In this document: one piece after another, positions 5,015 through 62,178 of the stretch
Layout of the letters: the number at the start of each line of letters is the position of its first letter
How positions within the stretch are numbered: the first letter of the stretch is position 1
NCBI GenBank assembly: GCA_951406725.2
Contig: OX597815.1
Coordinates: 10,788,001-10,852,000 of the forward strand
DNA length: 64,000 bases
Direction of reading: 5' to 3'
Origin: Octopus vulgaris
Lineage: Eukaryota
The notes under the pieces: model-generated
The model's input: the letters and a program-made list of their open reading frames with translations, nothing else
Told to the model about the DNA's origin: nothing
Database searches by the model: none
Position numbers and translations under genes: made by a program

Positions 5015-5417
5015 GGCGAGCTGGCAGAATCGTTAGCACGCCGGGCGAAATGCGTAGCCGTATTTCGTCTGCCGTTACGTTCTGAGTTCAAATTCCGCCG
5101 AGGTCAACTTTGCCTTTCATCCTTTCGGGATCAATTAAATAAGTACCAGTTACGCACTGGGGTCGATATAATCGACTTAATCCGTGTGTCTGTCCTTGTT
5201 TGTCCTCTCTGTGTTTAGCCCCTTGTGGGTAGTAAAAGAAATAGGTATTTCGTCTGTCGCTACGTTCTGAGTTCAAATTCCGCCGAGGACTTTGCCTTTC
5301 AACCTTTCGAGGTCGATAAATTAAGTACCAGTTACTCACGATGTAATCGACTTAATCCGTTTGTCTGTCCTTGTTTGTCCTCTTTGTGTTTAGCCCCTTG
5401 TGGGTAGTAAAAAAATA
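5015..5417 (+). mobile_element. SINE family C (Meta-domain-like), dimeric copy
   Basis: Head ggcgagctggcagaa, B-box gagttcaaattc and Meta-like gcctttcatcctttcggggtcgataaa motif. The body is duplicated. TSD ggtaagaggacac. Confidence 0.85.
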
Positions 5418-5626
5418 GGTAAGAGGACACTGCAAGCGACCATTATTACTGGAGGCTGGAACTAGACCTTTCCAGTCACATGTTTAGCTTCTTTCACTAC
5501 ATGCATTAATTATTTTCTTTTCCCTCGTTACCTCATTAGTTTACTCGTTTCATGTGATTATTTTATCAATTTATATTCTAATGCCCACGCAGAAGAAATC
5601 ATCACTTCTTCACGGATTGATTATAA

Positions 5627-12879: not shown

Positions 12880-12941
<62 letters not shown>

Positions 12942-12944
12942 CTG

Positions 12945-13809
12945 CTGAGGATAAAGCTCGCAAGAAAAAGCCACGTTGGATGTGTAATGTCAATACTCGA
13001 CAGAGTGTAAGTGCCTTGAGAGAAAAGTTGGACCTAAGAACATCAACGCAGAGACGTGGTAACACGTATTAAGTATTATGAAGATAGTTGTATGAAAAAG
13101 GCCACAAGCGGTTGATGGAACCTGTGGAAGAGGTAGACCCAGGAAAACCTGGGACGAGGTGGTGAAGAACGACCTTCGCGCTTTGGGTCTCACCGAGGAA
13201 ATGACCAGAGATCGAGACCTTTGGAAGTATGCTGTACGCGAGAAGACCCGGCAGGACACGTGAGGCCATAACCCATGGCCCCTACCTGGGACGTAGTCAG
13301 TCCACCTGTGTATACCTTCCTTCTTGGGACACATAACTCTACTTGTGAAGACCTGCTGAGGCAAGTGAAAATCAAATCAAATCAAAATCGATGAACATCA
13401 ATGGAATTTGTATTTTGTGGTACCAGTGCCGGTGGCACATAAGAAAACCATCCGAACGTGGCTGTAGCCAGTACCGCATCGACTGGCCTCCATGCTGTGG
13501 GCACGTAACAAACACCATCCGATCGTGGCCGTGCCAGCCTCGCCTGGCCTCCGTGCCGGTGGCACGTAAAAAACACCATCCGAGCGTGGCCGTTCGCCAG
13601 CCTCGTCTGGCACCTGTGTCGGTGGCACATAAAAAGCACCCACTACACTCACGGAGTGGTTGGCGTTAGGAAGGGCATCCAGCTGTAGAAACACTGCCAG
13701 ATCTGACTGGCCTGGTGCAGCCTTCGGGCTTCCCAGACACCAGTTGAACCGTCCAACCCATGCTAGCATGGAAAGCGGACGCTAAACGATGATGATGATG
13801 ATGATGATG

Positions 13810-13810
<1 letters not shown>
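12945..13810 (+). mobile_element. RTE-clade LINE 3' end: ORF terminus plus long 3' UTR with 63-nt module array and (GAT)n tail
   Basis: Encodes ...DGTCGRGRPRKTWDEVVKNDLRALGLTEEMTRDRDLWK, a typical RTE C-terminus. The UTR ends ggcgttaggaagggcatccagc...aaacgatgatgatg. Confidence 0.85.
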
Positions 13811-13841
<31 letters not shown>

Positions 13842-13859
13842 GTATATATATGTGTGTAT

Positions 13860-14545
13860 AATAATAAGTAGAATAATTTAGAGAAGTTCTTGGGACAGTA
13901 TTATGTATATTTGAAAGAATGAGTAGATTTGGCTTTTCAAGTTAGTAATTTTTATTTTAATCTTTAAAATAATATAATTAGATGGTTGGGATATTCGAGT
14001 ATGAGTGAGGAATTTGATAGGAATAAAGAGTTAAATTGTAGATTTATAAGGTTATTAGGATTACCTAAGGGGTATTTATAAGGTTACTGGGGTTACCTAA
14101 GGGGTATTTATAAGATTACTGGGGGTTACCTAAGGGGTATTTATACCTAAGGGGTATTTATAAGGTTATTGGGGTTACCTTAGGGGTAATGCCTAAACGG
14201 TCATACAGTCGTTTAGGCATTTGGATTTATGGTAGAATTTGAATGTGTGAAAAAAGCGGTTTTCTTCGTGGGATTGAACTTGAATTCGTGTGGTTGAAAA
14301 GCCAACTTCTAAACCACAAAGTGTGTTTGTGCTTGTTTGTGTGTGTGCGTGCGCATGCGCGTAAAAGAGAGACCCTACACGCTATTATTGCTTAAAGATC
14401 AGAAGTTAAAAATACAATTAATACATTTTTAAATGGATTATTTTATGGAATATTATCGCTAATGTTCGTGTTTTTAAGTCTTGCAAATTTATTGAGCAAA
14501 ACCGTTTTATGCAGAGAGAGTGTTAAGGGAGATAACTCTAATATA
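13860..14545. mobile_element. C-depleted repeat-like segment with ~30-bp internal tandem repeats and a captured SINE head
   Basis: Repeats of gtatttataaggttactggggttacctaagggg at about 14040-14190, a 12-bp hairpin at 14188-14221, and a reverse SINE-A-like head at about 14267-14335. Confidence 0.5.
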
Positions 14546-16439: not shown

Positions 16440-17740
16440 CGGTTAATACATTTAAAAGTGGGGAGACAGAGGACCAGTATTGCAAACTACTAACACTCAG
16501 AAAATGGCTTGGTCTGCCGAAACCACAGAATACAACTGCACTATATGGAAAACCCGTGCTGCAACTGCCAATAATAAGGCAGGAAAGGCAATGACAGTAA
16601 TGATGCTAAGGTATTCAAAAGATCAGAGCATCCGGGAAAACCCTCCAAAGGTACGAACAGGGAGGAAATGGAAGGCGGAAGAGGCAGTAAACAAGGCGAT
16701 CGGAAAACTAAGGCACGCAGATATAGTCGGAGCGACGCAAGACGCAAGAACCGGCCTAGGGTCGCACAATTTCGGGCCATTTTGCAAGAGCAGTATAAAA
16801 GAGATGAAAGAGGCAGTGGTATACGAAGTGAGAAAGGAGGAAGAAGAAAGGCGAAATGTACATTTGGTGCAATGCAGTCAACAGGGACAGTGCCTGAGAT
16901 GGGAGGAATATGTGATCAACCGCAGAATATCATGGAAGGAACTTTGGGCTTGGGAACAAGCAAGAACATCCTTCCTGATCAAGGTCTACCTTCGACGTTC
17001 TACCCTCACCGGCGAACTTAGTCCGGTGGAACATAAAAACAACCGATGAGTGTAGATGCGGAGAGAAAGCGACGGTTAGACATGTTCTGTCAAATTGCAG
17101 ATTAGCACTAGAAAGACATACATGGCGGCATAATCAAGTCCTCGGCGTCATAAGCGCAGCACTCAAGGAGATCGAGAGGTACAATAGGGGAGAGTACCCA
17201 AAAGTAGAAAAGCGCAGGAAAGTATACTTCCACAAGGAAGGAAGAGGATATAAAACCAGGCCTACAAGTAAAATATACGAGATAGAGGAAAGATGGAAGG
17301 GATACTGGGAGGTGGCCACGGATTTGGAAAGACAAGTAATATTCCCACTAATAAAAACGACAAAAAGACCAGATTTAGTCCTATGGAACGGAGAATAGGA
17401 ATTTTACTAGAACTGACAGTACCTTGGGAAGAGAACATCGGCAATGCAGAGGAACGAAAGGAGAAGAGGTACGAAAAACTAATCGAAGAAGGCAGAGAAC
17501 AGGGATGGGATGTCGAATATTACCACCTGGCAGTGGGGGCTAGAGGCTTCATTGAAAGGAAAATGACAACGCTTTTCAAAAGAAGATTTGTTTTTTCTAA
17601 CCCCGAGCTGCGTAAACTAATAAGGGGAGTACAGGAGGCGGTCGAAAAAGCCAGCTTCTATATATGGCTGAAGCGAGAAGACCAAAAATGGCTTGAAAGT
17701 CATTACATGCCGGCGGGAAATAACATCTTTAGGTGAGACA
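16440..17740 (+). mobile_element. Hero-like non-LTR retrotransposon 3' fragment (CCHC plus restriction-like endonuclease), frameshifted
   Basis: Motifs GRKWKAEEAV, CRCGEKATVRHVLSNC, WRHNQVL, KRPDLVLWN, ELTVPWEEN, KEKRY and VGARG are split across frames. Confidence 0.85.
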
Positions 17741-20599: not shown

Positions 20600-22480
20600 A
20601 GTGTGTGTGTGTGTATGCATATGTATATATATGTATGTATGTGTGTGTATGCATATGTATATGTATGTATGTATGTGTGTGTATGCATATGTATATATAT
20701 GTATGTATGTGTGTGTATGCATATGTATATATATGTATGTATGTGTGTGTATGCATATGTATATATATGTATGTATGTGTGTGTATGCATATGTATATAT
20801 ATGTATGTATGTGTGTGTATGCATATGTATATATATGTATGTATGTGTGTATATGCATATGTATATATATGTATGTATGTGTGTGTATGCATATGTATAT
20901 ATATATATGTATGTATGTGTGTGTGCATATGTATATATATGTATGTATGTGTGTGTATGCATATGTATATATATGTATGTATGTGTGTGTATGCATATGT
21001 ATATATATATATGTATGTATGTGTGTGTATGCATATGTATGTATATGTATGTTTGTGTGTGTATGCATATGTATATATATGTATGTATGTATGTGTGTGT
21101 ATGCATATGTATATATATGTATGTATGTGTGTGTTTTTGCATATGTATGTATATGTATGTATGTGTGTGTATGCATATGTATATATATGTATGTATGTGT
21201 GTGTTTTTGCATGTGTATATATATGTATGTATGTGTGTGTATGCATATGTATATATATGTATGTATGTGTGTGTTTTTGCATGTGTATATATATGTATGT
21301 GTGTGTGTGTATGCATATGTATATATATGTATGTATGTGTGTGTATGCATATGTATATATATGTATGTATGTATGTGTGTATGCATATGTATATATATGT
21401 ATGTGTGTGTGTATGCATATGTATATATATGTATATATATGTATGTATGTGTGTGTATGCATATGTATATATATGTATGTATGTGTGTGTATGCATATGT
21501 ATATATATGTATGTATGTGTGTGTATGCATATGTATATATATGTATGTATGTGTGTGTATGCATATGTATATATATGTATGTATGTGTGTGTATGCATAT
21601 GTATATATATGTATGTATGTGTGTGTATGCATATGTATATATATGTATGTATGTGTGTGTATGCATATGTATATATATGTATGTATGTGTGTGTATGCAT
21701 ATGTATATATGTGTGTGTATGCATATGTATATATATATATATGTATGTATGTGTGTGTATGCATATGTTTATATATGTATGTATGTGTGTGTATGCATAT
21801 GTATATATATATATGTATGTATGTGTGTGTATGCATATGTATATATATGTATGTATGTGTGTGTATGCATATGTATATATATGTATGTATGTGTGTGTGT
21901 GTATGCATATGTATATATATGTATGTATGTGTGTATGCATATGTATATATATGTATGTGTGTGTATGCATATGTATATATATGTATGTATGTGTGTGTGT
22001 GTATGCATATGTATATATATGTATGTATGTGTGTGTATGCATATGTATATATATGTATGTATGTGTGTATGCATATGTATATATATGTATGTATGTGTGT
22101 GTATGCATATGTATATATATGTATGTATGTGTGTGTATGCATATGTATATGTATGTATGTATGTGTGTGTATGCATATGTATATGTATGTATGTATGTGT
22201 GTGTATGCATATGTATATATATATGTATGTATGTGTGTATGCATATGTATATATATATATGTATGTGTGTGTATGCATATGTATATATATGTATGTATGT
22301 GTGTGTATGCATATGTATATATATGTATGTATGTGTGTGTTTTTGCATGTGTATATATATGTATGTATGTGTGTGTATGCATATGTATATATATGTATGT
22401 ATGTGTGTGTTTTTGCATGTGTATATATATGTATGTATGTGTGTGTATGCATATGTATATATATATATGTATGTATGCGT
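20600..22480. repeat. ~1.9-kb higher-order microsatellite, ~34-bp unit GTATGCATATGTATATATATGTATGTATGTGTGT
   Basis: Seen directly in the sequence. It explains the spurious 600-800 aa ORFs. Confidence 0.95.
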
Positions 22481-23740
22481 GTGCATCTGTATGTACGTAT
22501 CCTGCATATTTATGTGCTTGTATGTCCGTGTTTGTGTATATTCTATGTATGTGTGTATGAGCATGTGTTTGTATATGTATGCACCTCTGTCTCCTTGTGT
22601 GTGCATGTCTCTGTGTGTGTGTGTGTTACGTAACCATGTACCATGTTTGTATGTATGGATGTGCATCTTTATATGTGTGGATCCGTGTCTCCATATGTGT
22701 CTGTTCTTATAGCCTATATACCTATCCGTCTGTAAATTGTGGATTTTCTTTACCCCCTAAAACAACCAACAGGGAAATGCAATCATTACGGGATGAATTA
22801 TTGAGTTCATAACAAAACTCTTTGGGAGCACTCGACTGTGTCAAATTTCTGATGTCGTTGAGAATGGTTCCGCCTGTAAGACACAACGGTGTATTATATT
22901 CCAATGTAAATTATAAAGTTGTTTCATAAACTTAGGTCTTGTCCCATCAGAGTGTCTTTATTAACACCCCGTGGAATTAAATCATCTGGTAAGAATTTTA
23001 TTTTGCGTTGCTCTAATCCACTCTGCTGACAAAATTGAGTTGTAACTGTAATTCTTAGGGCCAACCTTATGACATTCTGTGTCGCGCTCAATCTCCCTGA
23101 TAACTACGTTAAGGGTACTCATGTTTGTGGAGTGGTCAGCCACTTGCCTGTTAATTTCATGTTGATCAGATAAAGTGGAACAATCGCCGTCATAACCAAC
23201 AGAGTGCTAGTTAATATCATTCCACATTATTCGTGGTGAACCGTCCTAATTTATTGGCTCACATACACTTGTACATGCCCATCATTTATTTGGAAACATA
23301 CGCCATTCTTTTCCCAGACATCAGTTTTACACCGTTATCTTTTTTTACTTTTACAGCCTCATACCATTCGAAGAATGCCGATTTCACCAGAATGTCTGCT
23401 ACCATTTATTTATAGACATTGATATATTATTTAATTTCTTACATAACAACCATCAAGTATAACCAAAAACTTAATGTAAAACTAAAAATGTTTTTGAGTA
23501 CAACAATGCCTACGACTTGCAGAGTGTCCTGTGAGCAATGAGCATTCTTGGGGTAAGCATAAAATGATTGGATAATTTTCACTTATAAACAGCCCCATGC
23601 TGTTAATTACAAGAAAGTGATTAACAAAATATATTTATACTGACGGACATTTTTCAAGTTTTAAGAAAACTTTGTCAATCAACAGTGGACATTAATCTAT
23701 TTGGTTCATCTAATACAACTGTTTGTACCAATATATATTT

Positions 23741-23931
23741 CTGTGCAGGTGGCACGTAAAAAGCACCCACTACACTCGCGGAGTGGTTGGCGTTAGGAAG
23801 GGCATCCAGCTGTAGAAACACTGCCAGATCAGACTGGAGCCTGGTGCAGCCTTCTGGCTTCCCAGATCCCCGGTCGAACCGTCCAACCCGTGCTAGCACG
23901 GAAAACGGACGTTAAACGATGATGATGATGA
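23741..23931 (+). mobile_element. 5'-truncated RTE 3' tail (one module)
   Basis: Matches 13615-13810 and ends in (GAT)n. Confidence 0.85.
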
Positions 23932-23932
23932 T

Positions 23933-24065: not shown

Positions 24066-24139
24066 GAAATATAGTGGTGAGAAAGCTTTAATTAAGTGAA
24101 TCATTTTTTCCTAATCAAAGATCAGCATCCAGAAGGAAG

Positions 24140-25198
24140 ATGTTTTCTTCAAAACCTGAGGGAAATAGGGAAAAACCTTATCGCTGTGAAATTTGTGGAA
24201 AATCTTTTGTGAGCAAGGGAAATTTGAAAACACACAACAGATTACATAGCGGGGAAAACCTGTTATGCTGTGAAATATGTGGTAAATCTTTCATTAAAAA
24301 TTCTAGGCTGACAGTCCATAAGAGAGTACATACTGGTGAAAGACCATATCGTTGTGAAACTTGTGCCAAATCGTTTGTGTCTAATGACCACTTGAAGGCA
24401 CACAGAAGAATGCACTCTGGAGAAAAACCGTTCAATTGTGATGTATGTGGGAAGTGCTTTGTCTCCAACAGTAATTTAACAACGCATAAACGGATACACT
24501 CTGGACAGAATCTGTTTCACTGTGAAATATGCGGGACGTCCTTCGTTGAAAATTCCAGTCTTACAATCCACATACGTAGCCATACGGGAGAAAAACCATA
24601 TTGCTGTCAAACGTGCGGAAAAGCATTCGTGTCTAACAGTAATTTGACGACACACGTTAAAAAACACAACGGAGAGAAACCATTTCGATGTGATATATGC
24701 GGGAAGTCTTTTATTAACAGTTCGAATGTTATAATTCACCAGCGAGCACACACAGGGGAGAGACCCTATCACTGTGAGATCTGCGGAAAATCGTTTTCTG
24801 TTAACTTCAGTCTTGTAGTTCACAGAAGAATCCATACGGGAGAGAAACCGTACCACTGTGAGATCTGCGGGAAATGTTTTGTGTGTAACAGTCATTTAAC
24901 GACTCACAAACGAATTCATACTGGGGAAAATCCGTTTCGCTGTGATATTTGTGGGAAACCTTTCATTGAGAATTCTCAGCTTAGAATCCACAAACGTAGA
25001 CACACTGGGGAAAAGCCTTACCGCTGTGAAATGTGTGAGAAGTCTTTTGTCAATAATAGTGATTTAAAACGCCACGAACTATTGCACAGTGGGGAAAGGC
25101 CTTATCACTGTGGAATCTGTGAGAAGTCCTTTATCACTCGAAGTCACTTGAAGAAACATGAACGGATACACACAGGAGGAATATCCATTGAAATGTGA
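24140..25198 (+). CDS. Tandem C2H2 zinc-finger protein, 12 fingers, no KRAB/SCAN domain visible
   Basis: Intact 352-aa ORF with 12 CxxC-x12-HxxxH fingers and TGEKPY-type linkers. A splice acceptor-like site (ttttttcctaatcaaag) ends at 24120, just upstream of the ATG. Confidence 0.95.
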   Translation: MFSSKPEGNREKPYRCEICGKSFVSKGNLKTHNRLHSGENLLCCEICGKSFIKNSRLTVHKRVHTGERPYRCETCAKSFVSNDHLKAHRRMHSGEKPFNCDVCGKCFVSNSNLTTHKRIHSGQNLFHCEICGTSFVENSSLTIHIRSHTGEKPYCCQTCGKAFVSNSNLTTHVKKHNGEKPFRCDICGKSFINSSNVIIHQRAHTGERPYHCEICGKSFSVNFSLVVHRRIHTGEKPYHCEICGKCFVCNSHLTTHKRIHTGENPFRCDICGKPFIENSQLRIHKRRHTGEKPYRCEMCEKSFVNNSDLKRHELLHSGERPYHCGICEKSFITRSHLKKHERIHTGGISIEM

Positions 25199-26169: not shown

Positions 26170-26745
26170 TATTGGTTTCAAATTTTGGGACAAGGCCAGC
26201 AATTTCAGAGGTGGGGATAAGTTGATTACGTTGACTCCACTGCTCAACTTGTACTTATTTTATTGACCACAAAAGGCAAAGTCAACCTCAGAGAAATTTG
26301 AACCCAACATAAAGACAGACGAAATACCTATTTCTTTACTACCCACAAGGGGCTAAACACAGAGAGAACAAACAAGGACAGACAAAGGGATTAAGTCGAT
26401 TACATCGACCCCAGGGTGTAACTGGTACTTATTCAATTGACCCCGAAAGGATGAAAAGCAAAGTCGACCTTGGCGGAACTTGAACTCAGAACATAAAGAC
26501 AGACGAAATACCTATTTCTTTACTACCCACAAGGGGCTAAACACAGATAGGACAAACAAGGACAGACAAAGGGATTAAATCGATTACATCAACCCCAGAG
26601 TGTAACTGGTACTTATTTGATTGACCCCAAAAGGATGAAAAACAAAGTTGACCTCGGCAGGACTTGAACTCAGAACGTAACAGCAGACAAAATACTGCTG
26701 AGCATTTCGCCCGGTGGGCTAACGATTCTGCCAGCTCGCCGCCTT
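26170..26745 (-). mobile_element. SINE family C multimer (head, two young bodies and one older body)
   Basis: gacgaaatacctatttcttt junctions at about 26318 and 26500. Confidence 0.8.
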
Positions 26746-27349: not shown

Positions 27350-27646
27350 CGGACTGACTCCTGTGCAGGCCAGTGCTGCTGGACTGACTCCTGTGCAGGT
27401 GGCACGTAAAAAACACCATTTTCAAGCGTGGATGTTGCCAGTACCGCCAGACTGGCCCTCGTGCCGGTGGCACTTTAAAAGCACCCACTACACTCTTGGA
27501 GTGGTTGGCGTTAGAAAGGGCATCCAACTGTAGAAACTCTGCCAGATCAGATTGAAGCCTGGAGCAGCCATCTGGTTCGCCAGTCCTCAGTTAACTCATC
27601 CAACCCATGCTAGCATGGAAGGCGGACGTTAAACGATGATGATGAT
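27350..27646 (+). mobile_element. RTE 3' tail (two modules)
   Basis: Same UTR family with a (GAT)n end. Confidence 0.85.
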
Positions 27647-28016
27647 ATGCAGACTCTGCTTTTCAGTGTACTCTGGACAAAAAGATAAGAGGTGAAAGTG
27701 TTGTCTCAAAGAAAAATAAGATGTGTGTTTTCAGTGCTGTATGAGGTAATATGTTGAATATAAGTTGGACCAGAGCCTACAGATATTCAAGAAGGGGGAA
27801 TTTTTCGGTGGTTTTGGATTGTTCTTTTGGCAGTCACAATAGCTATAACTTCCTGCTGGTTTGTTACAAAGCAAATTTAGTTAAAATCATAAATCAGTGG
27901 ATCGTTTTAAACCAGGCAATGTGATATGCCTACAGCCAAGAAAAAGAAAGGAAGAAAAAATGATCTCCTGAAAGTGGCCCTCTGTATGCTTATTTGGTCT
28001 GCAATAATAATAATAA

Positions 28017-28445
28017 TCATCATCATCATCGTTTAACGTCCGCTTTCCATGCTAGCATGGGTTGGACGGTTCAACTGGGGTCTGGGAAGCCCGAAGGCTG
28101 CACCAGACCAGTCAGATCTGGCAGTGTTTCTACAGCTGGATGCCCTCCCTTACGCCAACCACTCCGTGAGTGTAGTGGGTGCTTTTTATGTGCCACCGAC
28201 ACAGGTGCCAGACGAGGCTGGCGAACGGTCACACTCGGATGGTGTTTTTTATGTACCACCAACACAGGTGCCAGACGAGGCTGGCAAACGGCCACGCTCT
28301 GATGGTGTTTTTTATGTGCCACCGACACAGGTGCCAGACGAGGCTGGCAGACGGTCACGCTCGGATGGTGTTTTTTATGTACCACTGACACAGGCGCCAG
28401 ACGAGGCTGGCGAACGGCCACGCTCGGTTGGTGTTTTTTACATGC
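28017..28445 (-). mobile_element. RTE 3' tail with homogeneous 63-bp module array (about 4.5 units)
   Basis: Repeated ggtgttttttatgtgccaccgacacaggtgccagacgaggctggc. Confidence 0.9.
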
Positions 28446-34224: not shown

Positions 34225-34675
34225 GTGCTGACAGCACCATACGAGTGTGATCATTGACAGAGCGGCTAACTGGTTTCCGTGCCAGTGGCACATAAAATGG
34301 CACCATTAGAATGTGATCATTACCAGTGTTGACTTACTGGCAATTGTGCCCGTGCTAGTAGGGTGCCAAGAGCACCATCCAAGCATGATCGTTGCCAGAG
34401 CAGCCAACTGGCTTCTGTGCCAGTGGCAGGTAAAAGGGCACCATTCGAGCAAGGTCATTGCCAGTATTGCCTGACTGGCCCCCATGCCGGTGGCACGTAA
34501 AAAGCACCCACTACACTCTCGGAGTGGTTGGCATTAGGGAGGGCATCCAGCTGTAGAAACTCTGCCAGATCAAGACTAGAGCCTGGTGTAGCCATCTGGT
34601 TTGCCAGCCCACAGTCAAACCGTCCAACCCATGCTAGCATGGAAAGCGGACATTAAACGATGATGATGATGATGA
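34225..34675 (+). mobile_element. RTE 3' tail with heterogeneous module array
   Basis: About 4-5 diverged modules followed by the conserved UTR end and (GAT)n. Confidence 0.85.
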
Positions 34676-35188
34676 TAATATATTATATATTAAATTGTCT
34701 TGTTTAATCATTTAGTGTACCTTCACACTGAGTGATTAGAAGAAGAAATATTGAAGTCATCATCTATACGTCCATCTTTCATGTTGGCTTGGATTGGATG
34801 GTTTGACAGGATCCAATAGATTCAAGGACTGCATTGTGCTCCGATGTCTGCTTTGGTATTGTTTCTACATCTGGATGCCCTTCCTAATGGCAACCACTTT
34901 ACAGAGTGTTCTGGGTGCTTTTTTAGCTCCTATAATGATGTCGCTCTGCAGCTAGCAAGTCTAAGATACCCTTTGGTTGAGTGGGGGCTACAGTGGAGAT
35001 GAAGTTGGCTTTCTGCTAGATGTGAAGGGTAAGTATAAAAGAAGGGACCAAAACAGAACAAGTTTCTTGCTGTAAAGGAGCACATGGTTACTCACATTAT
35101 AGAAGAATGGATGAGAGTAACTAGGTTGGAACTGGAAAGAGATAAGATAGTGGTAACAAGGTGTCAGTGTGGACCATCAAGGTTAAAA

Positions 35189-36626: not shown

Positions 36627-37037
36627 GAGCTGGCAGAAACGTTCGCACGCCGGGCGAAATGCTTAGCCAGTATTTCGTCTGCCGTTACGTTCTGAGTTCA
36701 AATTTCGCCGAGGTCGACTTTGCCTTTCATCCTTTCGGGGTCGATAAATTAAGTACCAGTTACGCACTGGGGTCGATGTAATCGACATAATACCTATGTC
36801 TGTTCTTGTTTGTCCCCTCTATGTTTAGCCCCTTGTGGGTAATAAAGAAATAGGCATTTCGTCTGCCGTTACGTTCTGAGTTCAAATTCCGCCGAGGTCG
36901 ACTTTGCCTTTCATCCTTTCGGGGTCGATAAATTAAGTACCAGTTACGCACTGGGGTCGATGTAATCGACATAATACCTATGTCTGTCCTTGTTTGTCCC
37001 CTCTATGTTTAGCCCCTTGTGAGTAATAAAGAAATAG
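36627..37037 (+). mobile_element. SINE family C dimer
   Basis: Head followed by two bodies. TSD aggtgttctg. Confidence 0.85.
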
Positions 37038-37319
37038 GTGTTCTGGGTGTATTAAACTAAGTTTGGGACCTTCAAAGCTATAGCACCGGTGTTATTCAAG
37101 CAGAGGGACAAAGAGTCACCGACACCGTTCATTCAATTAATGTTACGTCGACCGACTTAATTGCATCTTTGTTTGGGTTGAAAGTGAATTCCTCTATTTA
37201 TTTCAGTCATCGGACCACAACTGTGATGTAACAACGTTTATGATTATTTCCTGAAAGTCCAAAAGTTCGCCAGTCTTACCTCTTTCAACCTGTGCCCGTT
37301 TCTTTCATTAATTATTGTT

Positions 37320-37540: not shown

Positions 37541-38324
37541 CAAGAGTCGCAGGTCCACCACCTTCATAATTATGTCTTTCATTTCGTCATGGACCACTAC
37601 AACACAAGCTGGTTGCACCAATTTTACAAGTGCTTTGGAAATGGATTTTAATCACAATCCAATGAATGACTAATATTCTTGATCTTTTTTTTACGTTTAA
37701 ATGGAAAAGAGAGTTTTATTAATATTGCCATCTCTTCACACGTTGTACGCTTTTTTACTATCTGGGTGGACGACCCCGGTCTATTAGGACAACACACAGA
37801 GTTTTCTTTTCTCTCTAATCTGTCTTCTATCTTATCTTTTTTCTAACTGATTATTCCGTTTTCCATGACACAACATGAATGTGAAAAAAACTTGTGTGTA
37901 TCTGTCATTTATACATACTCTATATTCTTAACGTACATAGCATACATTTACAATATCTACATTTCATGACAGAATTATATGTATATTGCAATGTTTGTCG
38001 TTTGAAAAGGATCCAGTCAGCAACAAACATTCGAGTGTAACAGAAAAACCTTGCATAATTTCTACACATGTAAATGAAATCCTCTCAGATACAAGCCAAG
38101 AAACTGAACCCAATTAAAATTGATACTTGCAGAGAATTCTCAACTTATAAAATAATTAATATGGAGTATATTAATCATTAGACACTTCTTATACCATTGT
38201 TATTGAACAATATAGATTCAGTTACAAGGATCTACAAAAGTGAAAAATCTTTACAGAGTGAGTCCATTAGAACATCGGCCAGTGGAAGGATTATTGAATA
38301 TCAGAGTGACATTTGTAAAAAAAA

Positions 38325-39890
38325 ATGCTTTCTTCGAAATGTGAAGTCATCACACGCAAAGAAACACACAACAAGAAGAAACTATACCACTGCGAAATAT
38401 GTGGAAAATATTTTGTTTCCAACAGTAATTTAACAACACATAAGAAAATACATACTGGGGAAAAACCGTTCCATTGTGAGATCTGTGGAAAATCCTTCAT
38501 AAATAGTTCAGAACTTGCTATCCACATCCGTAGACACAAAGGAGAAAAGGCTTACCAATGTGAGGTGTGTGGAAAATCTTTTATCACGAATGGTGATTTA
38601 AAAATACATGAACGGATACATACTGGGGAAAGACCTTTCCACTGTGAAATATGCGGAAAAGCTTTTGTTAATAGATCACAGCTTGTTGTCCACGTACGGA
38701 GACACACGGGGGAAAAAACTTATCATTGTGAGGTGTGCGGAAAATCCTTTATTACCAATGGTGACTTAAAAGTACATGAGAGGGTTCACACTGGGGAAAA
38801 ACCGTTCCACTGTGAAATCTGCGGAAAATCTTTTGTAAATAGTTCGCATCTGGTTGTCCACATTCGTCGACACACGGGGGAAAAGACGTATCATTGTAAA
38901 GTGTGCGGAAAATCTTTCGTTGCTAACGGTGACTTGAAAATACACGAACGAATACACACTGCGAAAAGTCTGTTCCACTGCGAAATTTGCGGAAAATCGT
39001 TCACCCACAATTCCCATCTTGTCATCCACATAAGTCGACACACGGGCGAAAAACCCTTTAATTGCGAAATATGCGGACAATCTTTCTTCACGAACGGACA
39101 CTTAAAAACACACGGCAGGATCCATACGGGGGAAAAACCGTTCCAGTGCGAAACGTGTGGAAAATCTTTCATTTATAATTCTAAGCTTACAATACACAAA
39201 CGTAGCCACACCGGCGGAAACTCATATTGTTGCGAAATTTGCGGAAAGTCGTTTATCAATAACTACAAACTTTCGATCCACAAACGTAGCCACACCGGAG
39301 AAAAGCCATATTGCTGTCAGATCTGCGGAAAATCCTTCGCTGCTAGCAGCAGCCTAACAACGCACAATAGGGTTCATACTGGAGAAAACCTTTTCCACTG
39401 CGAGATCTGCGGAACGTCTTTTACCACAAACGGTAGGCTTACAATTCACAAACGTAGTCATACTGGAGAAAAACCTTATCACTGTGAAATCTGTGGAAAA
39501 TCTTTTGTGTCCAACAGTAATTTAACAGCACATAATAGAATTCATACGAGAGAGAAACGGTATCATTGTGAAATCTGTGGGAAGTCTTTCATGAACAATT
39601 CGGATGTTGTTATTCACAAACGAGCACATAGCGGGGAAAAGCCGTATCCCTGCGATGTGTGTGGAAAGTCGTTCTCTGTTAATTCAAGCCTCGTAGTTCA
39701 CAAGAGGAGACATACTGGGGAAAACCCATTTCATTGTGAGATCTGCGGAAAATCTTTCACTCAGACTTCTAGTCTTGTCGTTCACAAAAGGATTCATACG
39801 GGAGAAAAACCTTACCACTGTGAGATATGTGGGAAATGTTTTGTCTCGAACAGTAAATTAACGATACACACAAAAATACACACTGGATAA
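38325..39890 (+). CDS. Tandem C2H2 zinc-finger protein, 18 fingers, paralog of 24140-25198
   Basis: Intact 521-aa ORF with 18 C2H2 fingers and TGEKP linkers. It shares recognition-helix motifs (VSNSNL, SVNxSLVVH) with the upstream gene. Confidence 0.95.
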
Positions 39891-39913: not shown

Positions 39914-40550
39914 AGGCAACGAGCTGGCAGAATTATAAACCTGCGGCGAGATGGCAGAGACGTTAGCACGTCGGGCGAAATGCGTAGCCGTATTTCGTCT
40001 GACGTTACATTCTGAGTTCAAATTCCGCCGAGGTCGACTTTGCCTTTCATCCTTTTGGGGTCGATTAAATAAGTACCAGTCACGCACTGGGGTCGATGTA
40101 ATCGACTTAATCCCTTTGTCTGTCCTTGTTTGTCCTCTCTGTGTTTAGCCCTTTGTGGGTAGTAAAGAAATAGGAATTTCATCTGCCGCTATGTTCTGAG
40201 TTCAAATTCTGCCGAGGTCGACTTTGCCTTTCATCCTTTCGGGGTCGATTAAATAAGTACCAGTTACGCACTGGGGTCGATGTAATCGATTTAATCCTTT
40301 TGTCTGTCCTTGTTTGTTCCCTCTATGTTCAGCCCCTTGTGGGGCAATAAAGAAATAAGAATAATAAACCTGTGGAGTGAAGTTCTTCACAGCATTTTGT
40401 CTGTCTTTATGTTCTGAGTTCAAGTTCTGCCAAGCTTCACTTTGCTTTTCATCCTATGTGGGGGTCGATGAAATAAGTACCAGTTGAATATTGTGGTCAA
40501 TATAATCAACTTCCCACTTCCTCGAAATTGCTGGCTTTGTGCCAAAATTT
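39914..40550 (+). mobile_element. Young SINE C dimer nested inside an older related SINE, immediately after the zinc-finger stop codon
   Basis: The outer head ggcaacgagctggcagaat is split by the TSD gaat(t/a)ataaacctg, and the old body resumes at about 40375. Confidence 0.8.
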
Positions 40551-44234: not shown

Positions 44235-44578
44235 AGTACATCAACATCAAAATAATAATTCAAATGGAAATTGTAGTTAAGACACCCGTGCTGGTGAAAC
44301 GTAAAAAGCACCGTCCGAATGTGGCAGATGCCAGCGCTGCCTGGCTGGTGTCAACCGATCGTGGCCATTTGCCAGCCTGCTCTGCCCCCTGTGCAGGTGG
44401 CACGTAAAAAACGTCCACTACACTCACGGAGTGGTTGGCGTTAGGAAGGGCATCCAGCTGTAGAAACACTGCCAAATCAGACTGGAGCCTGGCCTGGTGC
44501 AGCCTCCATGGCTTCCAGACCCTGGTCGAACCATCCAACCCATGCTAGCATGGAAAATGGACGTTAAATGATGATGTT
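44235..44578 (+). mobile_element. RTE 3' tail (two modules)
   Basis: Same UTR family. Confidence 0.8.
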
Positions 44579-45066
44579 GTACCCCACCCACTGTTTCTCT
44601 CACCTCTTTCACTCTTTCCTTCATTTCCACCATCTCCTTATCTACTTTACTTCTACAGTACTCTCACTCTGCTCTTCTTCTTCGTCCTACCTCTGTAGCA
44701 CTCTGCAGTATTCTACTTGCCATGCTCCCTCTGCCTCTTTTTGTCACACAGTCTCTCCAGCTTCTCTGCCTCTGCAATGTCCCAATCCACTCCTCATTTC
44801 TCCCTCTCTGACCTACCTGCACACCCTTACATCTCTCTTTCAATGATTTAAGATTCCTCTTGACCCTTTCCTGCCCCCATTTTCTCACACCTGTCTATAC
44901 TCACCCTTTATAATGTTGGATAGCTCTAGACTCCCCCTTTACACAATCTTCCTCATCACCTTTACAACACTATCCCTCTCTTTTTCTCAACCTGCCATTA
45001 ATCCCTTATTTCTCCCTATTCCTTGCCATACTTGTTTCTCTCCTAGGATCATTGCTCACTCTCTCT

Positions 45067-45470
45067 TCAGTTCCCCTCAGTTGAAGGGGCCACTTTAGGG
45101 CCTTAGTCTTTGAGGTAATAATCACCAGCAATGGTGCTACAAAAAAGCACTCAGTACTTTCTGTAAAGTGGTTGGCATTAGAAAGGGGATCCAGTGATAG
45201 AAACCATGCTGAAGGGGCCATTAGTGAACAATGCAATCCTTCAGTTCCCCTCAGTTGAAGGGGCCACTTTAGGGCCTTAGTCTTTGAGGTAATAATTACC
45301 AGTGATGGTGTTACAAAAAAGCACCCAGTACATTCTGTAAAGTGGTTGGCATTAGAAAGGGGATCCAGTGATAGAAACCGTGCTGAAGGGGCCATTAGTG
45401 AACAATGCAATCCTTCAACTCATCAGACCCTGTCAAACCATTCAACCCATACTAACATGGAAGTCAGATT
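45067..45470 (+). repeat. Tandem duplication (~173 bp x2) of an older RTE-tail variant
   Basis: tcagttcccctcagttgaagggg occurs twice. Each unit has aaaaagcac.cagtac...gtggttggcattagaaaggg. Confidence 0.75.
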
Positions 45471-45674
45471 TTAAATAATTGATCGGTTAAAAATTTCCAT
45501 GTTCTGCTGCTATTTTTCAACTAGTTGGCAAAATCCAAAGATCTCTCTTTGTGCAGTATGCCATTGTCATGGTTGTTGTTATTTAACTCAAGGTTAGTTC
45601 TGAGTGAACTGACCTATGATCAAGGGTTCCAACTTCAAAATTTCCATTTTTTTGTATATCTTTGTATATCGAAA

Positions 45675-46040
45675 TCGATCAAAAATCAATGGAAATTGTA
45701 GTTGTGATACCAGTGCTGGTGGCATGTAAAAGAAACATCTGAACGTGGCTATTGCCAGCGCTGCCTCCACTGGCCTCCGTGCCTGTGGCACGTAAAAAAA
45801 AAAAGCACCAACCGATCATGGTCACTGCCAGCCTCGCCTGGCACCTGTGTCGGTGGCACGTAAAAAGCACCCACTACACTCATGGAGTGGTTGGCGTTAG
45901 CAAGGGCATCCATCTGTAGAAACACTGCCAGATCAGAATGGAGCCTGGTGCAGCCTCCTGGCTTCCCAGACCCCAGTCGAACAGTCCAACCCATGCTAGC
46001 ATGGAAAGCGGACATTAAACAATGATGATGATGATGATGA
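45675..46040 (+). mobile_element. RTE 3' tail (three modules)
   Basis: Same UTR family with a (GAT)n end. Confidence 0.85.
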
Positions 46041-46342
46041 TAATAGATGTTTCCTTTTTTGAAGAGGGGGGCATTTTGCTGTTTCTTCCATTAACTAAAT
46101 CATCACATAAATGTCTTGGGCATTAACTGTAAGGTTGATAGCAGAGTGGATTTGTGAAAGCAGAGCATGAGTCTTAAATGTGTCTTTTACTTCAGATTTT
46201 GTAGAAATGGTTGAAATGCCGATTCTATGTTTGATTTTATGGTCCACCTCATTCTGGTGATGCTAGAATTCTGCAGGTAGGTGGGAATTCTCATGTATGT
46301 ATATATATATTTTTTTTTGTTACCTTTTTCTAGGTTATACTC

Positions 46343-47176: not shown

Positions 47177-47615
47177 TCATCATCATCATTGTTGTTGTTT
47201 AACGTCCGCTTTCCATGCAGGCATGGGTTGGATGATTTGACTGAGGACTGGTGAACCAGATGGCTGCACCAGGCTCCAATCTTGATCTGGCAGAGTTTCT
47301 ACAGCTGGATGCCCTTCCTAATGCCAACCACTCCAAGAGTGTAGTGGGTGCTTTTTATGTGCCACCGGCACTAGGTCCAGTCAGGAGGTACTGGCAACGG
47401 TCACGGAAAATCATGTTTTTTTTCTGTTTTTACGTATCACCTGCACACCGGCACAAGTGCCAGTACGGCAACACTGGTAATGATCATGCTTGAATGGTGC
47501 TTTTTATGTGCCACCAGCATGAAAACCAGTTAGCTGCTCTGGCAACGATCATGCTTGGATGGTGCTCTTAGTGCTCCACTAGCACGGATGCCAGTCATCG
47601 AATTTGATTTCAATT
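47177..47615 (-). mobile_element. RTE 3' tail, reverse
   Basis: (CAT)n followed by the reverse UTR with several modules. Confidence 0.8.
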
Positions 47616-55723: not shown

Positions 55724-56108
55724 TGTGTCGGTGGCACATAAAAAAAACACCATCCGAGCATGGCCGTCTGCCAGCCTCGTCTGGCACCTGTGTCGGTGGC
55801 ACATAAAAAACACCATCCGAGCGTGGCCGTCTGCCAGCCTCGTCTCGCACCTGTGTCGGTGGCACATAAAAACACCACACGAGCGTGGCCGTCTGCCAGC
55901 CTCGTCTGGCACCTGTGTCGGTGGCACATAAAATCACCCACTACATTCTCGGAGTGGTTGGCGTTAGGAAGGGTATCCAGCTGTAGAAACACTGCCAGAT
56001 CTGACTGGCCTGGTGTAGCCTTCAGGCTTGCCAGACCCTAGTTGAACCGTCCAACCCATGCTAGCATGGAAAGCGGACGTTAAACGATGATGATGATGAT
56101 GATGATGA
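55724..56108 (+). mobile_element. RTE 3' tail with 63-bp module array (4 modules)
   Basis: Units start at 55724, 55789, 55852 and about 55914. (GAT)n end. Confidence 0.9.
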
Positions 56109-56350
56109 TCCAGGAAAAATGAAAAGCAAAGCTAATCTTGGCTGTATTTGAACTATGATCGTAAGCAGTGAAATAGCTGGGTCATTAGAGTTTAGGATAA
56201 AATGTTTTGCTGTATTTGTTCTGACTCAGTACACTGAGTTCAAATTCAACTTAGGTCAGTTTTGTTTTTTGTGTGTTCAGGGTCGATAAAGTATCGGTTG
56301 AAGGAGACAGAGGCATCGATTGACAAGAATTGTTAAAATTTTAGATAAAT

Positions 56351-57075
56351 AGGCGCAGGAGTGGCTGTGTGGTAAGTAGCTTTCTAACCAACCACATGGT
56401 TCTGGGTTCAGTCCCACTGCGTGGCACCTTGGGCAAGTGTCTTCTGCTATATCCCCGGGCTGACCAATGCCTTGTGAGTGGATTTGGTAGACGGAAACTG
56501 AAAGAAGCCCGTCATAGGCGCAGGAGTGGCTGTGTGGTAAGTAGCTTGCTAACCAACCACATGGTTCTGGGTTCAGTCCCACTGCGTGGCACCTTGGGCA
56601 AGTGTCTTCTGCTATATCCCCGGGCTGACCAATGCCTTGTGAGTGGATTTGGTAGACGGAAACTGAAAGAAGCCCGTCATAGGCGCAGGAGTGGCTGTGT
56701 GGTAAGTAGCTTGCTAACCAACCACATGGTTCTGGGTTCAGTCCCACTGCGTGGCATCTTGGGCAAGTGTCTTCTGCTATAGCCCCAGGCCGACCAATGC
56801 CTTGTGAGTGGATTTGGTAGACGGAAACTGAAAGAAGCCTGTCGTATATATGTATATTATGTATATATATATGTATGTGTGTCTGTCTCCCTAGCATTGC
56901 TTGACAACCGATGCTGGTGTGTTTACGTCCCCGTCACTTAGCGGTTCGGCAAAAGAGACCGATAGAATAAGTACTGGGCTTACAAAAGAATAAGTCCCGG
57001 GGTCGATTTGCTCGACTAAAGGCGGTGCTCCAGCATGGCCGCAGTCAAATGACTGAAACAAGTAAAAAGAGTGAA
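56351..57075 (+). mobile_element. SINE family A with triplicated 165-bp head
   Basis: aggcgcaggagtggctgtgtgg starts at 56351, 56516 and 56681. Confidence 0.9.
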
Positions 57076-58218: not shown

Positions 58219-58420
58219 ATCATCATCATCATCATCGTTTAACGTCTGTTTTCCATGCTAGCAAGGGTTGGACGGTTCAACTGGGGTCTGGGAAGCCAGA
58301 AGGCTGCACCAGACTCCAGTCTGATCTGGCAGTGTTTCTACGGCTGGATGCTCTTCCTAACGCCAACCACTCCATAAGTGTAGTGGGTGTTTTTTATGTG
58401 CCACCGGCACAGGTGCCAGG
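58219..58420 (-). mobile_element. RTE 3' tail, truncated
   Basis: Reverse UTR with one module. Confidence 0.85.
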
Positions 58421-59204
58421 GGAAAACTTGGCTACTATTTCTAGTAGAAAATGTGATTGTTTAAAGACATTCTTAGGACAATACTGGGGATTAGATACAA
58501 ACTGTTGACGCTTTAGCTTAAAGATTAACTCTGTTGCTTCTACTATCTTTGACTTTGTGAGAAAAAACATTTGTTAAATTAATAAGAATTATGTTCTCAC
58601 ATTTTACATAGTTATTCTAAGTATTTATCAAAAGCTTTCCAAATTTTTACTGTATTTTATAATCTAAAAGAAGAATCTTAACAGTTCAATGAATTTTGTC
58701 ATCTCCATAATAAACTAGTTAAATGTCTAAGTTGTTCTTAATCCCTTGAACCGTGAACCCTCTACCAGGTGTGCATGTAAATAACAACAGAGATCAGCTA
58801 CGTGGCAGAATGGAATCTAGTCTGGCAAGAAATGGTAAAAAAAAAAAAATCATTGTTTCTAGAACTTTCAGTTGGCAAGTCCAAAGGGTTAATAAGATTA
58901 TTGTTTTTGGATTATTAGCCAGATGTGTCTATAAAAGAATTTGTGTGTCAACTGTTTAGTAGATAAGAGAATTAGTTTACAAATAAATGGTTCTAGTTTG
59001 AATCCAGTCTGATGCCATCTACATAACCTGATGAAGACTTGAAATCAAACCAGTTGAAACATAGTGAAGATGAAAGAACAAATTCTGAGTGATTCATGGA
59101 AATGTGGACCTTAAATAATGATGATGGGGATTTTCATCTAGAAAGATGAGATTAATCGTCTGAAAAATTACTATTTTATTCACAATAAAATATTCTTTAA
59201 ATAT

Positions 59205-61205: not shown

Positions 61206-61836
61206 GTAAAATTAAACATCAAATAATTCTTTAAAAAAACTTCTTGTTTATTTATTAAAATGTTTTTTTACCATCCATTTATTGCAATTTTTCTATTAAA
61301 TTTAGACCAGCTTTGTTCATGGCCTACTTATACCAGTATATCCACTTCTATAATTATTAACTTGTATAGTTATTGTACTTGTTGACATTAGTAAGTTTCA
61401 TATTGTGGTGTTGGATGAATAATTTATCAAAGTGGTGGGAAAGAAACTATTCACACGATGCACTACAATCACTGTTACATGGGGCTCAACACTCTCTCGT
61501 AACTGTTCACAATCAGTTGCTCCTAAACAATTGCTCCTGTCAACTCAAAACTCAAACAATTCTTTATTGTATTGAAATGCGTCAGTTCACTTTTAGTCAC
61601 ATGGGGGTGGTAGGAATCCTTCCACAACATCTCCCCTTTTGAGAGTTAGCCTCCCATAACTTCTGTAGCATCTGGCCAAAGTATTCTGCCCATTTTACAT
61701 TCAAAATGTTCATAACCAGGCTCTCTAATCTACTCTCCCCTTTTGGAGAATTAAATTCTATTTAGAGTTTTAATATATCTTACACTTAGGGTTTAATTCC
61801 AGTGTTTCCATTCTTCTCCTTTTTTTGGTGCATGAA

Positions 61837-62178
61837 CATCATCATCATCGTTTAACGTCCGTTCTCCATGCTAGCATGAGTTGGACGGTTCGACCGGGGT
61901 CTGGGAAGCCAGGGGCTGCACCAGGCTCCAGTCTGATCTGGCAGTGTTTCTACAGCTGGATGCCCTTCCTAATGCCAACCACTCCGTGAGTGTAGTGGGT
62001 GCCTTTTACGTGCCACCTGCACAGGTGCCAGTGGGGTCCGGCATCGGCCACGATCGGTTGGAGCTTTTAACGTGCCACCGGCATGGAAGCCAGCCAAGGC
62101 GGCGCTGGCAACGGCCATGTTCGGATGGTGCTTTTTATGTGCCACCGGCACAGAAGCCAGTCGGGGCGGCGCTGGCAT
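61837..62178 (-). mobile_element. RTE 3' tail, reverse (three modules)
   Basis: Reverse UTR family. Confidence 0.85.

What the first reader, a model, noticed from the sequence alone, without database searches (positions are those of the whole stretch)
13420..13645. RTE LINE 3' UTR built from a variable-copy array of ~63-nt predicted pseudoknot-plus-hairpin RNA modules
Seen in sequence: about a dozen RTE tails (13420, 23741, 27390, 28175 rev, 34230, 44286, 45710, 47350 rev, 55724, 58385 rev, 62000 rev) carry 1-5 copies of YGTGC-N-GGTG-GCACR-TAAAAAR-CACC, then a linker, then GCCAG-(variable loop)-CTGGC. Inference: the first part folds as a compact H-type pseudoknot (S1 CGUGC/GCACG, 1-nt L1, S2 GGUG/CACC, A-rich L3), similar in geometry to luteoviral frameshift pseudoknots. 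Support: the L1 base varies (C, A at 23747, U at about 44292), and S1 swaps C-G for U-A in ctgtgtcggtggcaca. The GCCAG/CTGGC stem is conserved while its loop changes (cctcgt, taccgcatcga, agcagccaa, tattgcctga, cgctgcctcca), giving a repeat-and-variable-insert architecture. Possible roles are RT recognition, exonuclease blocking or processing into small RNAs. Caveats: the C-G to U-A swap can also arise from CpG decay, and some copy-number differences reflect 5' truncation.
Basis: partly seen in the sequence, partly recalled or inferred. Interest (0 to 1): 0.75.

Follow-up and report, generated by a model that had tools for sequence, protein, structure and literature searches.

The report
Repeated RNA knots in retrotransposon tail
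A very common octopus jumping gene carries one to six tandem copies of a short motif in its untranslated tail that is predicted to fold into a tiny RNA knot; the last copy stays intact in every subfamily examined, the extra copies are likely slippage-made duplicates that often decay, and the knot's job is untested.

Summary
All 11 listed loci are 3' ends of an RTE-type LINE, and complete arrays hold 1-6 modules (24 arrays). The 26-nt core can form 9 Watson-Crick pairs in H-type geometry (2 of 3000 shuffles). Across subfamily masters the predicted stems vary less than the loops (3/18 vs 23/34 columns, p=0.001), and 7 of 7 terminal masters keep every pair. Real covariation was not found: the C-G to U-A swap looks like CpG decay, at least 5 of 19 internal module types have lost a whole stem, and nested folds beat the knot in context. 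The variable loops are mutated homologues, not captured inserts. Distant RTE relatives share the terminal stem-loop but lack the array, so the core is not the ancestral RT-recognition signal. New: the 44-nt block behind the last core is 40/44 identical to the 5' UTR of a distant RTE, so this tail is a captured 5'-UTR domain with a slippage-amplified structured core. Fold and function are untested.

The parts
12942..13263 (+). 3' end of the RTE ORF (5'-truncated, broken copy); stop codon 13261-13263
   Evidence: near-full-length relatives L091/L095/L098 have EN + RT + PHD-like finger
13264..13424 (+). unique 3' UTR segment between stop codon and array
13425..13490 (+). module 1; outer S1 pair A.A and S2 reduced to 3 bp (subfamily trait)
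   Evidence: type seen in 27 modules
13491..13551 (+). module 2; S2 5' strand shifted (at most 3 bp) and one S1 mismatch in this copy
13552..13614 (+). module 3; intact core 13552-13577 (S1 13552-56/13562-66, L1 13557, S2 13558-61/13574-77), linker, GCCAG/CTGGC hairpin 13598-13611
13615..13640 (+). terminal core, all 9 pairs possible (one U-G); the copy kept intact in all subfamily masters
13641..13657 (+). short predicted hairpin with variable loop between core and conserved block
13656..13699 (+). conserved block; 40/44 identical to the 5' UTR of a distant RTE, also in SINEs of other animals
13696..13711 (+). GCCAG/CTGGC hairpin after the block, the same stem as in the modules
13743..13787 (+). 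terminal stem-loop shared with distant RTE relatives; likely RT-recognition signal
13788..13810 (+). (GAT)n tail
23741..23932 (+). truncated copy, terminal core only (L1 = A)
27369..27646 (+). copy with 2 cores
28007..28445 (-). copy with 4 near-identical cores (63-bp period, 90% matches)
34230..34683 (+). older subfamily copy; includes a module whose S1 3' strand is replaced (plain hairpin)
44286..44579 (+). copy with 2 detected cores (L1 = T at 44292)
45668..46048 (+). copy with 3 cores
47177..47596 (-). older subfamily copy, at least 3 cores
55724..56109 (+). copy with 4 near-identical cores; its 5' end falls at the first S1 base
58219..58423 (-). copy with terminal core only
61831..62176 (-). 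copy with 3 cores
45133..45378 (+). two decayed copies of the older sister family B (core plus block)

Best explanation
This is the 3' UTR of an abundant octopus RTE-type LINE whose 26-nt core is predicted to fold as a small H-type pseudoknot and likely serves as an accessory cis element that stiffens the LINE RNA and helps its own protein hold it, with only the last copy under strict selection and the upstream copies likely made by reverse-transcriptase slippage between repeated cores. Shown: (1) the tail is ORF stop, unique spacer, 0-5 extra modules, terminal core, hairpin, conserved block, terminal stem-loop, (GAT)n; (2) the terminal stem-loop is ancestral and shared with distant relatives whose 3' UTRs are otherwise very short; (3) the block sits in the 5' UTR of distant RTEs, so this lineage gained a 5'-UTR-derived domain in its tail; (4) the core was amplified in several unit sizes (about 20, 26, 63-67 and 100 nt) in different families; (5) stems change less than loops among subfamily masters, terminal masters keep all pairs, internal ones often break. 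Inferred: capture through a bipartite (5' UTR + 3' end) RTE RNA by template switching; duplication during reverse transcription; the knot fold, with the A tract in the S1 minor groove; the accessory protein-binding or stability role.
For: Geometry: 9 Watson-Crick pairs, 2/3000 shuffles with the A tract fixed, 0/3000 full shuffles; it matches the published description of small frameshift knots (S1 GC-rich 5-6 bp, L1 1-2 nt, A-rich loop; PMC5449628 passages). Masters: non-CpG variable columns 3/18 in S1+S2 vs 23/34 unpaired, p=0.001; 3/18 vs 18/26 leaving out the A tract and L1, p=0.0008. Terminal masters: 7 of 7 keep all pairs, changing only L1, wobbles and L3 (71 of 324 tails clustered). In sister family B the junction base is C, which loses the inner S1 pair and gains an inner S2 pair (C-G in 26 of 54 rows); subfamily B3a has a non-CpG A-U at the outer S1 pair (7 rows; one event). 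L134 holds 18.7 head-to-tail copies of a 26-nt unit, the bare core. Relatives: no convincing core in 94 loci, terminal stem-loop in 6. Block in RTE 5' UTRs: L382 40/44, ahead of an ORF 47% identical to the octopus endonuclease start, E 4e-35; L401 21/27. In L382 an H-type knot of unrelated sequence lies right before the block (6/400 shuffled windows). Precedent: a 3' UTR pseudoknot bound by R2Tg protein (PMC12222951 passages).
Against: No covariation above relatedness; RNAalifold predicts 0 pairs on the 54-copy alignment. No compensatory change among 15 canonical internal masters except one CpG-type swap. In family B (hand tally of the first 100 of 1,459 matches) the outer S2 pair is G-C 43, G-U 15, A-U 7, U.U 22, A.C 6, U.C 3, other 4, and 19 of 24 rows with A at the outer S1 position face A, so S1 is often 3 bp; L144 repeats a unit of about 20 nt that lacks the S1 5' strand. 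With crude penalties the knot wins only for the isolated core; in context nested folds are 1.7-9.3 kcal/mol lower in 9 of 10 comparisons, triples not counted. The whole UTR folds no better than shuffles (z 0.33). L382 and L401 come from one contig, and only 1 of these 2 5' UTRs has a strict knot. The stems were chosen from the same sequences, so the conservation contrast is partly circular. No test of protein binding or stability was possible.
Confidence: 0.5

Rival explanations
1. No pseudoknot: the core is a plain hairpin or a sequence-specific protein site, its complementarity comes from short duplications and template switches, and the array is a nearly neutral by-product of slippage.
For: Family B cores start with a duplicated hexamer, some units lack the S1 5' strand, and 4 of 19 family A types keep only an S2-type hairpin. 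Nested folds win in context. No covariation.
Against: Both stems are conserved in masters while L1 between them varies by transversions. Both GUG strands can pair at once only in the knotted order. The family B junction change trades one pair for another.
Confidence: 0.33
2. The knots block 5'-to-3' exonucleases (xrRNA-like), leaving short 3' RNAs that still carry the recognition stem-loop and are copied back into the genome as built-in SINEs.
For: 5' ends of genomic copies are over-represented at module positions 0-2: 17/146 vs 23/500 simulated uniform cuts, p=0.003. Loss per 100 nt is 0.70 in the array vs 0.12-0.28 downstream.
Against: After removing 5 non-junctions by hand the excess is 12/141, p=0.06. 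Most ends are spread over the module, with a second excess in the A tract (11/146 vs 10/500) that points to microhomology with AT-rich targets. Loss rates upstream of the array are similarly high (0.39-1.5, small n and marker misses). No Rfam match.
Confidence: 0.1
3. The modules are self-cleaving ribozymes or precursors of 60-65 nt small RNAs.
For: RTE elements often carry ribozymes, at the 5' end (PMC8501958 passages; PMC5786205 text). The period is regular.
Against: No Rfam hit over 13420-13790 at E up to 10 other than one snoRNA at 12.8 bits. No hammerhead, HDV or twister core seen by eye (motifs recalled). Cleavage in the 3' UTR would cut the ORF off from its priming tail.
Confidence: 0.04

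Closest known systems
Bipartite RTE elements and RTE 5'-UTR segments in SINE bodies (Kojima 2018, PMC5786205; results and discussion text, supplement parts 14-15 read)
   Same: An RTE 5'-UTR-derived conserved segment joined to an RTE 3' end and reused across elements.
   Different: Here it sits in the 3' UTR of an ORF-bearing LINE, behind an amplified core. The block was not found in that supplement's text (its Fig. S4 is a picture and gave nothing).
R2Tg 3'-UTR pseudoknot (PMC12222951, passages)
   Same: Small pseudoknot in a LINE 3' UTR, as predicted here.
   Different: The R2Tg knot is single, lies in the last 67 nt, is bound by the protein and is required. This core ends about 147 nt before the tail, is repeated, is absent from relatives and is untested.
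Luteoviral/retroviral -1 frameshift pseudoknots, BWYV and SRV-1 (PMC5449628, passages)
   Same: GC-rich 5-bp S1, 1-nt L1, short S2, A-rich loop over S1.
   Different: Lies 160 nt or more behind the stop codon, so there is no frame to shift; base triples not shown.
RTE-2_OV, octopus brain LINE (PMC9115989, passages; supplement files 5-8 not searched)
   Same: Octopus RTE with EN, RT, a zinc finger and UTRs of about 600 nt.
   Different: Its 3' UTR is described as mostly microsatellite from the ORF end. Whether it is this family was not tested.
Typical RTE 3' UTRs (PMC2887409, passages)
   Same: Simple-repeat tail, many 5'-truncated copies, slippage invoked for repeat growth.
   Different: Described as extremely short; this one is about 525 nt with a 63-nt repeat.

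Membership tests
RTE-clade LINE | single ORF with APE endonuclease followed by RT | tested here: met
   (Exo_endo_phos below the curated cutoff, RVT_1 E 8.5e-19, PHD-like finger)
RTE-clade LINE | simple-repeat 3' tail and mostly 5'-truncated copies | tested here: met
RTE-clade LINE | RT phylogeny places it in the RTE clade | not tested
RTE-clade LINE | target-site duplications | tested here: inconclusive
   22 candidates among 194 copies, few credible; flanks are often microsatellites
Bipartite RTE (5' UTR part + 3' end) | segment homologous to an RTE 5' UTR joined to an RTE 3' end | tested here: met
   both 5' UTRs come from one contig
Bipartite RTE (5' UTR part + 3' end) | non-autonomous, no ORF | tested here: not met
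   families A and B both follow an RTE ORF end
Luteoviral-type frameshift pseudoknot | 5-6 bp GC-rich S1, 1-2 nt L1, A-rich loop | tested here: met
   sequence
Luteoviral-type frameshift pseudoknot | slippery heptamer just upstream within a translated frame | tested here: not met
   array starts 161 nt after the stop codon
Luteoviral-type frameshift pseudoknot | base triples and protonated L1 cytosine (recalled) | not testable with these tools
   needs structure; L1 is not fixed as C
R2-type 3' UTR recognition pseudoknot | lies in the terminal ~70 nt and is conserved among relatives | tested here: not met
   core ends at 13640, tail starts at 13788; no convincing core in 94 loci of relatives
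R2-type 3' UTR recognition pseudoknot | bound by the element's protein and needed for TPRT | not testable with these tools
   needs biochemistry
xrRNA (exoribonuclease-resistant RNA) | 5' ends pile up at the 5' edge of the fold | tested here: inconclusive
   genomic 5' junctions only, p=0.003 raw and 0.06 curated
xrRNA (exoribonuclease-resistant RNA) | ring-like fold around the 5' end (recalled) | not testable with these tools
   no Rfam match
Retrotransposon self-cleaving ribozymes (HDV-like, twister, hammerhead) | match to a family model or catalytic core | tested here: not met
   cores also looked for by eye from recalled motifs
Repeat-spacer array with captured inserts | unrelated inserts between invariant repeats | tested here: not met
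   loops align as homologues and the flanking stem varies

The most novel reading that the evidence does not exclude
The knots are exonuclease roadblocks that a LINE evolved and multiplied in its own tail, in front of a captured 5'-UTR domain, so that partly degraded transcripts become short, stable, self-made SINE RNAs; this would explain roughly 10^5 short insertions and be a cellular, transposon-borne xrRNA array.
Probability: 0.1. Interest if true: 0.85.

Novelty: new variant of a known kind. Interest (0 to 1): 0.48.

Why it matters
It describes the cis-acting tail of one of the most abundant repeats of this genome (28,729 exact terminal matches; about 200,000 cores by extrapolation from 42 per 600 kb). 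It gives a clear case of an ORF-bearing LINE taking a 5'-UTR domain into its 3' UTR and amplifying a structured core there. The 44-nt block is 91% identical between elements whose proteins are 47% identical, which marks it as the strongly selected and still unexplained RNA element. The 26-nt core is small enough for direct probing. No description was found in searches, but repeat-library entries could not be searched.

Tried and rejected
Rfam: nothing relevant on 12900-13900, six loci holding other families or the L382 5' UTR. Modules in this LINE's own 5' UTR: none in 25 loci; the hits in 4 loci were neighbouring tail insertions. RT stall at the knot: rejected, since 0/146 junctions lie at positions 25-31 just 3' of S2 vs 55/500 simulated. 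Searches were cruder junction callers with artefacts and were replaced. 'Module = internally deleted terminal unit': plausible by eye, but the local score was reached by 1231/2000 shuffles. Ceph/RTE-5' domain of PMC5786205: shows a 3+5 bp knot geometry by eye, but its motif was not found in G000 or in 300 loci; homology unproven. V, Vhc, Meta, Nin and Snail SINE domains: the block was not found in the texts and supplement files searched (file 1 of PMC4758252 not searched). Twister at Perere-3 5' ends: only a short resemblance to family C. Expression: no RNA holder listed; 20 runs of 4 coded organisms hold the stretch as contigs only, so ends, strand and small RNAs could not be read. Viral contigs: no relative of the protein. 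A scan of viral contigs for the block was not run, so its presence there is open. TSD-based junction refinement failed. Hammerhead notes from the scan concern other elements.

Full report
Setting. The window is G000:C2:10788001-10852000 of a 2.8-Gb genome. The LINE protein's labelled close hits are Octopus vulgaris (92%) and O. bimaculoides (78%). The flagged stretch lies in a 5'-truncated copy (about 12942-13810) whose ORF end reads ...GRPRKTW...RQDT-stop. Of 20 extended copies, 3 reach 3.5 kb or more and encode endonuclease, RT and a PHD-like finger in one ORF region. The RTE assignment rests on architecture; no tree was built.

Observation. All 11 listed copies are real. The core is far above chance (28 hits in the window, 42 in 600 kb of evenly spaced stretches, 45 in 200 kb nearby; shuffles 0-2) and very abundant (28,729 exact terminal matches, control 0). 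Of 165 tails in unbiased stretches, 127 keep the terminal core and 24 reach the unique UTR upstream; those complete arrays hold 1-6 modules. So copy number varies by subfamily, but mostly by truncation.

Is it a pseudoknot? The core at 13552-13577 forms 9 Watson-Crick pairs in H-type order; 2/3000 shuffles with the A tract fixed do as well. Single copies decay neutrally, so pair counts on them have little power. The outer S1 pair shows the CpG pattern (U-G 132, C-G 113, U-A 82, C.A 44 of 410 modules). A 54-copy alignment of families A and B gives 79.6% paired cells, a covariation score reached by 7/500 shuffles, and no excess of doubly changed pairs (106/500); the alternative register gives 21/500; RNAalifold finds no pair.

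Subfamily masters. I therefore compared masters. 238 of 474 internal modules (including loci chosen by similarity) fell into 19 types. Among the 15 canonical types, non-CpG variation touches 3/18 stem columns and 23/34 unpaired columns (p=0.001); 3/18 vs 18/26 without the A tract and L1, and 6/28 vs 23/34 with the third stem after correcting two wrongly masked columns. The changes that do hit stems are not compensated. Four types replaced the S1 3' strand, one lost the S2 3' strand, and others carry single mismatches. All 7 terminal masters (71 of 324 tails) keep every pair and vary in L1, one wobble and L3. This contrast is partly circular because the stems were read from the same sequences.

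Sister family B. This older family also follows an RTE ORF end. It swaps the junction base so that S2 gains and S1 loses a pair, and one subfamily has A-U at the outer S1 pair. But U.U occupies the outer S2 pair in 22 of the first 100 of 1,459 matches, and the outer S1 pair is usually open (hand tally). B arrays repeat the bare 26-nt core (18.7 copies), a unit of about 20 nt without the S1 5' strand, or the whole unit of about 100 nt.

Energies. With a penalty of 7 or 10.8 kcal/mol and no triples, the knot competes for the isolated core (-4.2 to +2.1) but loses to nested folds in 9 of 10 in-context comparisons. One module folds better than shuffles as a nested structure that pairs the linker with the GCCA strand (z -2.45). 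The whole UTR does not (z 0.33). I put the knot in the terminal copy at about even odds.

Variable loops. The loops align as point and indel variants of one sequence, and the flanking stem has mismatches in 6 of 19 types. They are not captured inserts.

Relatives. An alignment of 21 proteins fetched 80 metagenome loci (of 523 confirmed) and 14 from genome contigs; the metagenome matches are 38-53% identical. In the 54 loci whose 3' flank I printed, the UTRs that could be recognised are short. Across all 94 loci there were 6 loose core hits, none resembling the motif, and 6 with the same terminal stem-loop (two of them one contig). The array is therefore a lineage-specific gain, and the stem-loop at 13743-13787 is the likely RT signal (inference).

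The block. The segment at 13656-13699 recurs 22 times in those loci. In L382 it matches 40/44 and lies directly ahead of an ORF 47% identical to the octopus endonuclease start. L401, on the same contig, is a second RTE with the block ahead of its ORF. It also occurs in tRNA-headed and other SINE-like elements. This fits the reuse of RTE 5'-UTR segments described in PMC5786205, here inside an ORF-bearing LINE's 3' UTR. The octopus element's own 5' UTR lacks both core and block. An H-type knot of unrelated sequence precedes the block in L382 (6/400 in shuffles) but not strictly in L401, and it may correspond to the hairpin at 13641-13657 rather than to the core.

Function. Genomic 5' ends were compared with 500 simulated uniform cuts. 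There is a mild excess at the first S1 bases (17/146 vs 23/500; 12/141 after removing 5 non-junctions, p=0.06), an excess in the A tract, and none just 3' of S2. This argues against RT stalling at the knot, leaves exonuclease blocking open, and may reflect microhomology with AT-rich targets. RNA ends and small RNAs could not be examined. No ribozyme or other Rfam family fits.

Verdict. A real, apparently undescribed, lineage-specific LINE tail: ancestral terminal stem-loop, captured 5'-UTR domain, and a constrained knot-capable core amplified by slippage. It works, if folded, like the accessory pseudoknot of an R2 3' UTR, but it is not a member of the frameshift, R2, ribozyme or repeat-spacer classes by the tests above.

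Papers seen. PMC5786205: text parts 2-3 and supplement parts 14-15. PMC9115989, PMC13282606, PMC8501958, PMC4758252, PMC4824008, PMC12222951, PMC2887409 and PMC5449628: passages, with supplement searches for PMC9115989, PMC8501958 and PMC4758252. Unseen supplement files and figure alignments could hold this family's sequence.

Noticed in passing
window 13656-13699; L382:3132-3175; L401; L305, L346, L395, L397: The block is shared by RTE 5' UTRs, tRNA-headed SINEs and other SINE-like elements of several animals, often with a hairpin directly before it. It was not found in the SINE-domain papers searched and may be the more important RNA element.
   Followed up: partly
module positions 25-31 in family A copies: 5' truncation points avoid the 7 nt right after S2 (0/146 vs 55/500 simulated) and favour the A tract; unexplained.
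   Followed up: partly
L134:1509-1997; L145; L144: Family B cores form minisatellite-like arrays with 26-nt (18.7 copies), about 33-nt and about 20-nt units.
   Followed up: partly
L150, L051, L067, L267 (family C): An old element family with the same block and tail but no core. Its upstream part resembles the start of the published Ceph/RTE 5'-UTR domain, which by eye also has small H-type knot geometry.
   Followed up: partly
L277, L287, L289 (5' UTR of this LINE): Pyrimidine-rich 5' UTR with a TATA-like box and its own short tandem repeats of variable number.
   Followed up: no
L382 / L401 (G001:C269): Three RTE segments head to tail on one 4.6-kb contig inside a prokaryote MAG; animal-type retrotransposon DNA contaminates several such assemblies.
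   Followed up: partly
window 24092-25198 and 38319-39890: Two long C2H2 zinc-finger array exons.
   Followed up: no
window 16456-17736: Fragments of a different LINE ORF, with motifs recalled as restriction-like endonuclease type; not checked against Pfam.
   Followed up: no
window 5060-5421, 26277-26695, 36672-37038, 39992-40362, 56349-56843: SINE-like units of 165-184 bp in tandem dimers or trimers.
   Followed up: no
window 20601-22495: 1.9-kb minisatellite of 34-bp period built from AT/GT microsatellite units.
   Followed up: no
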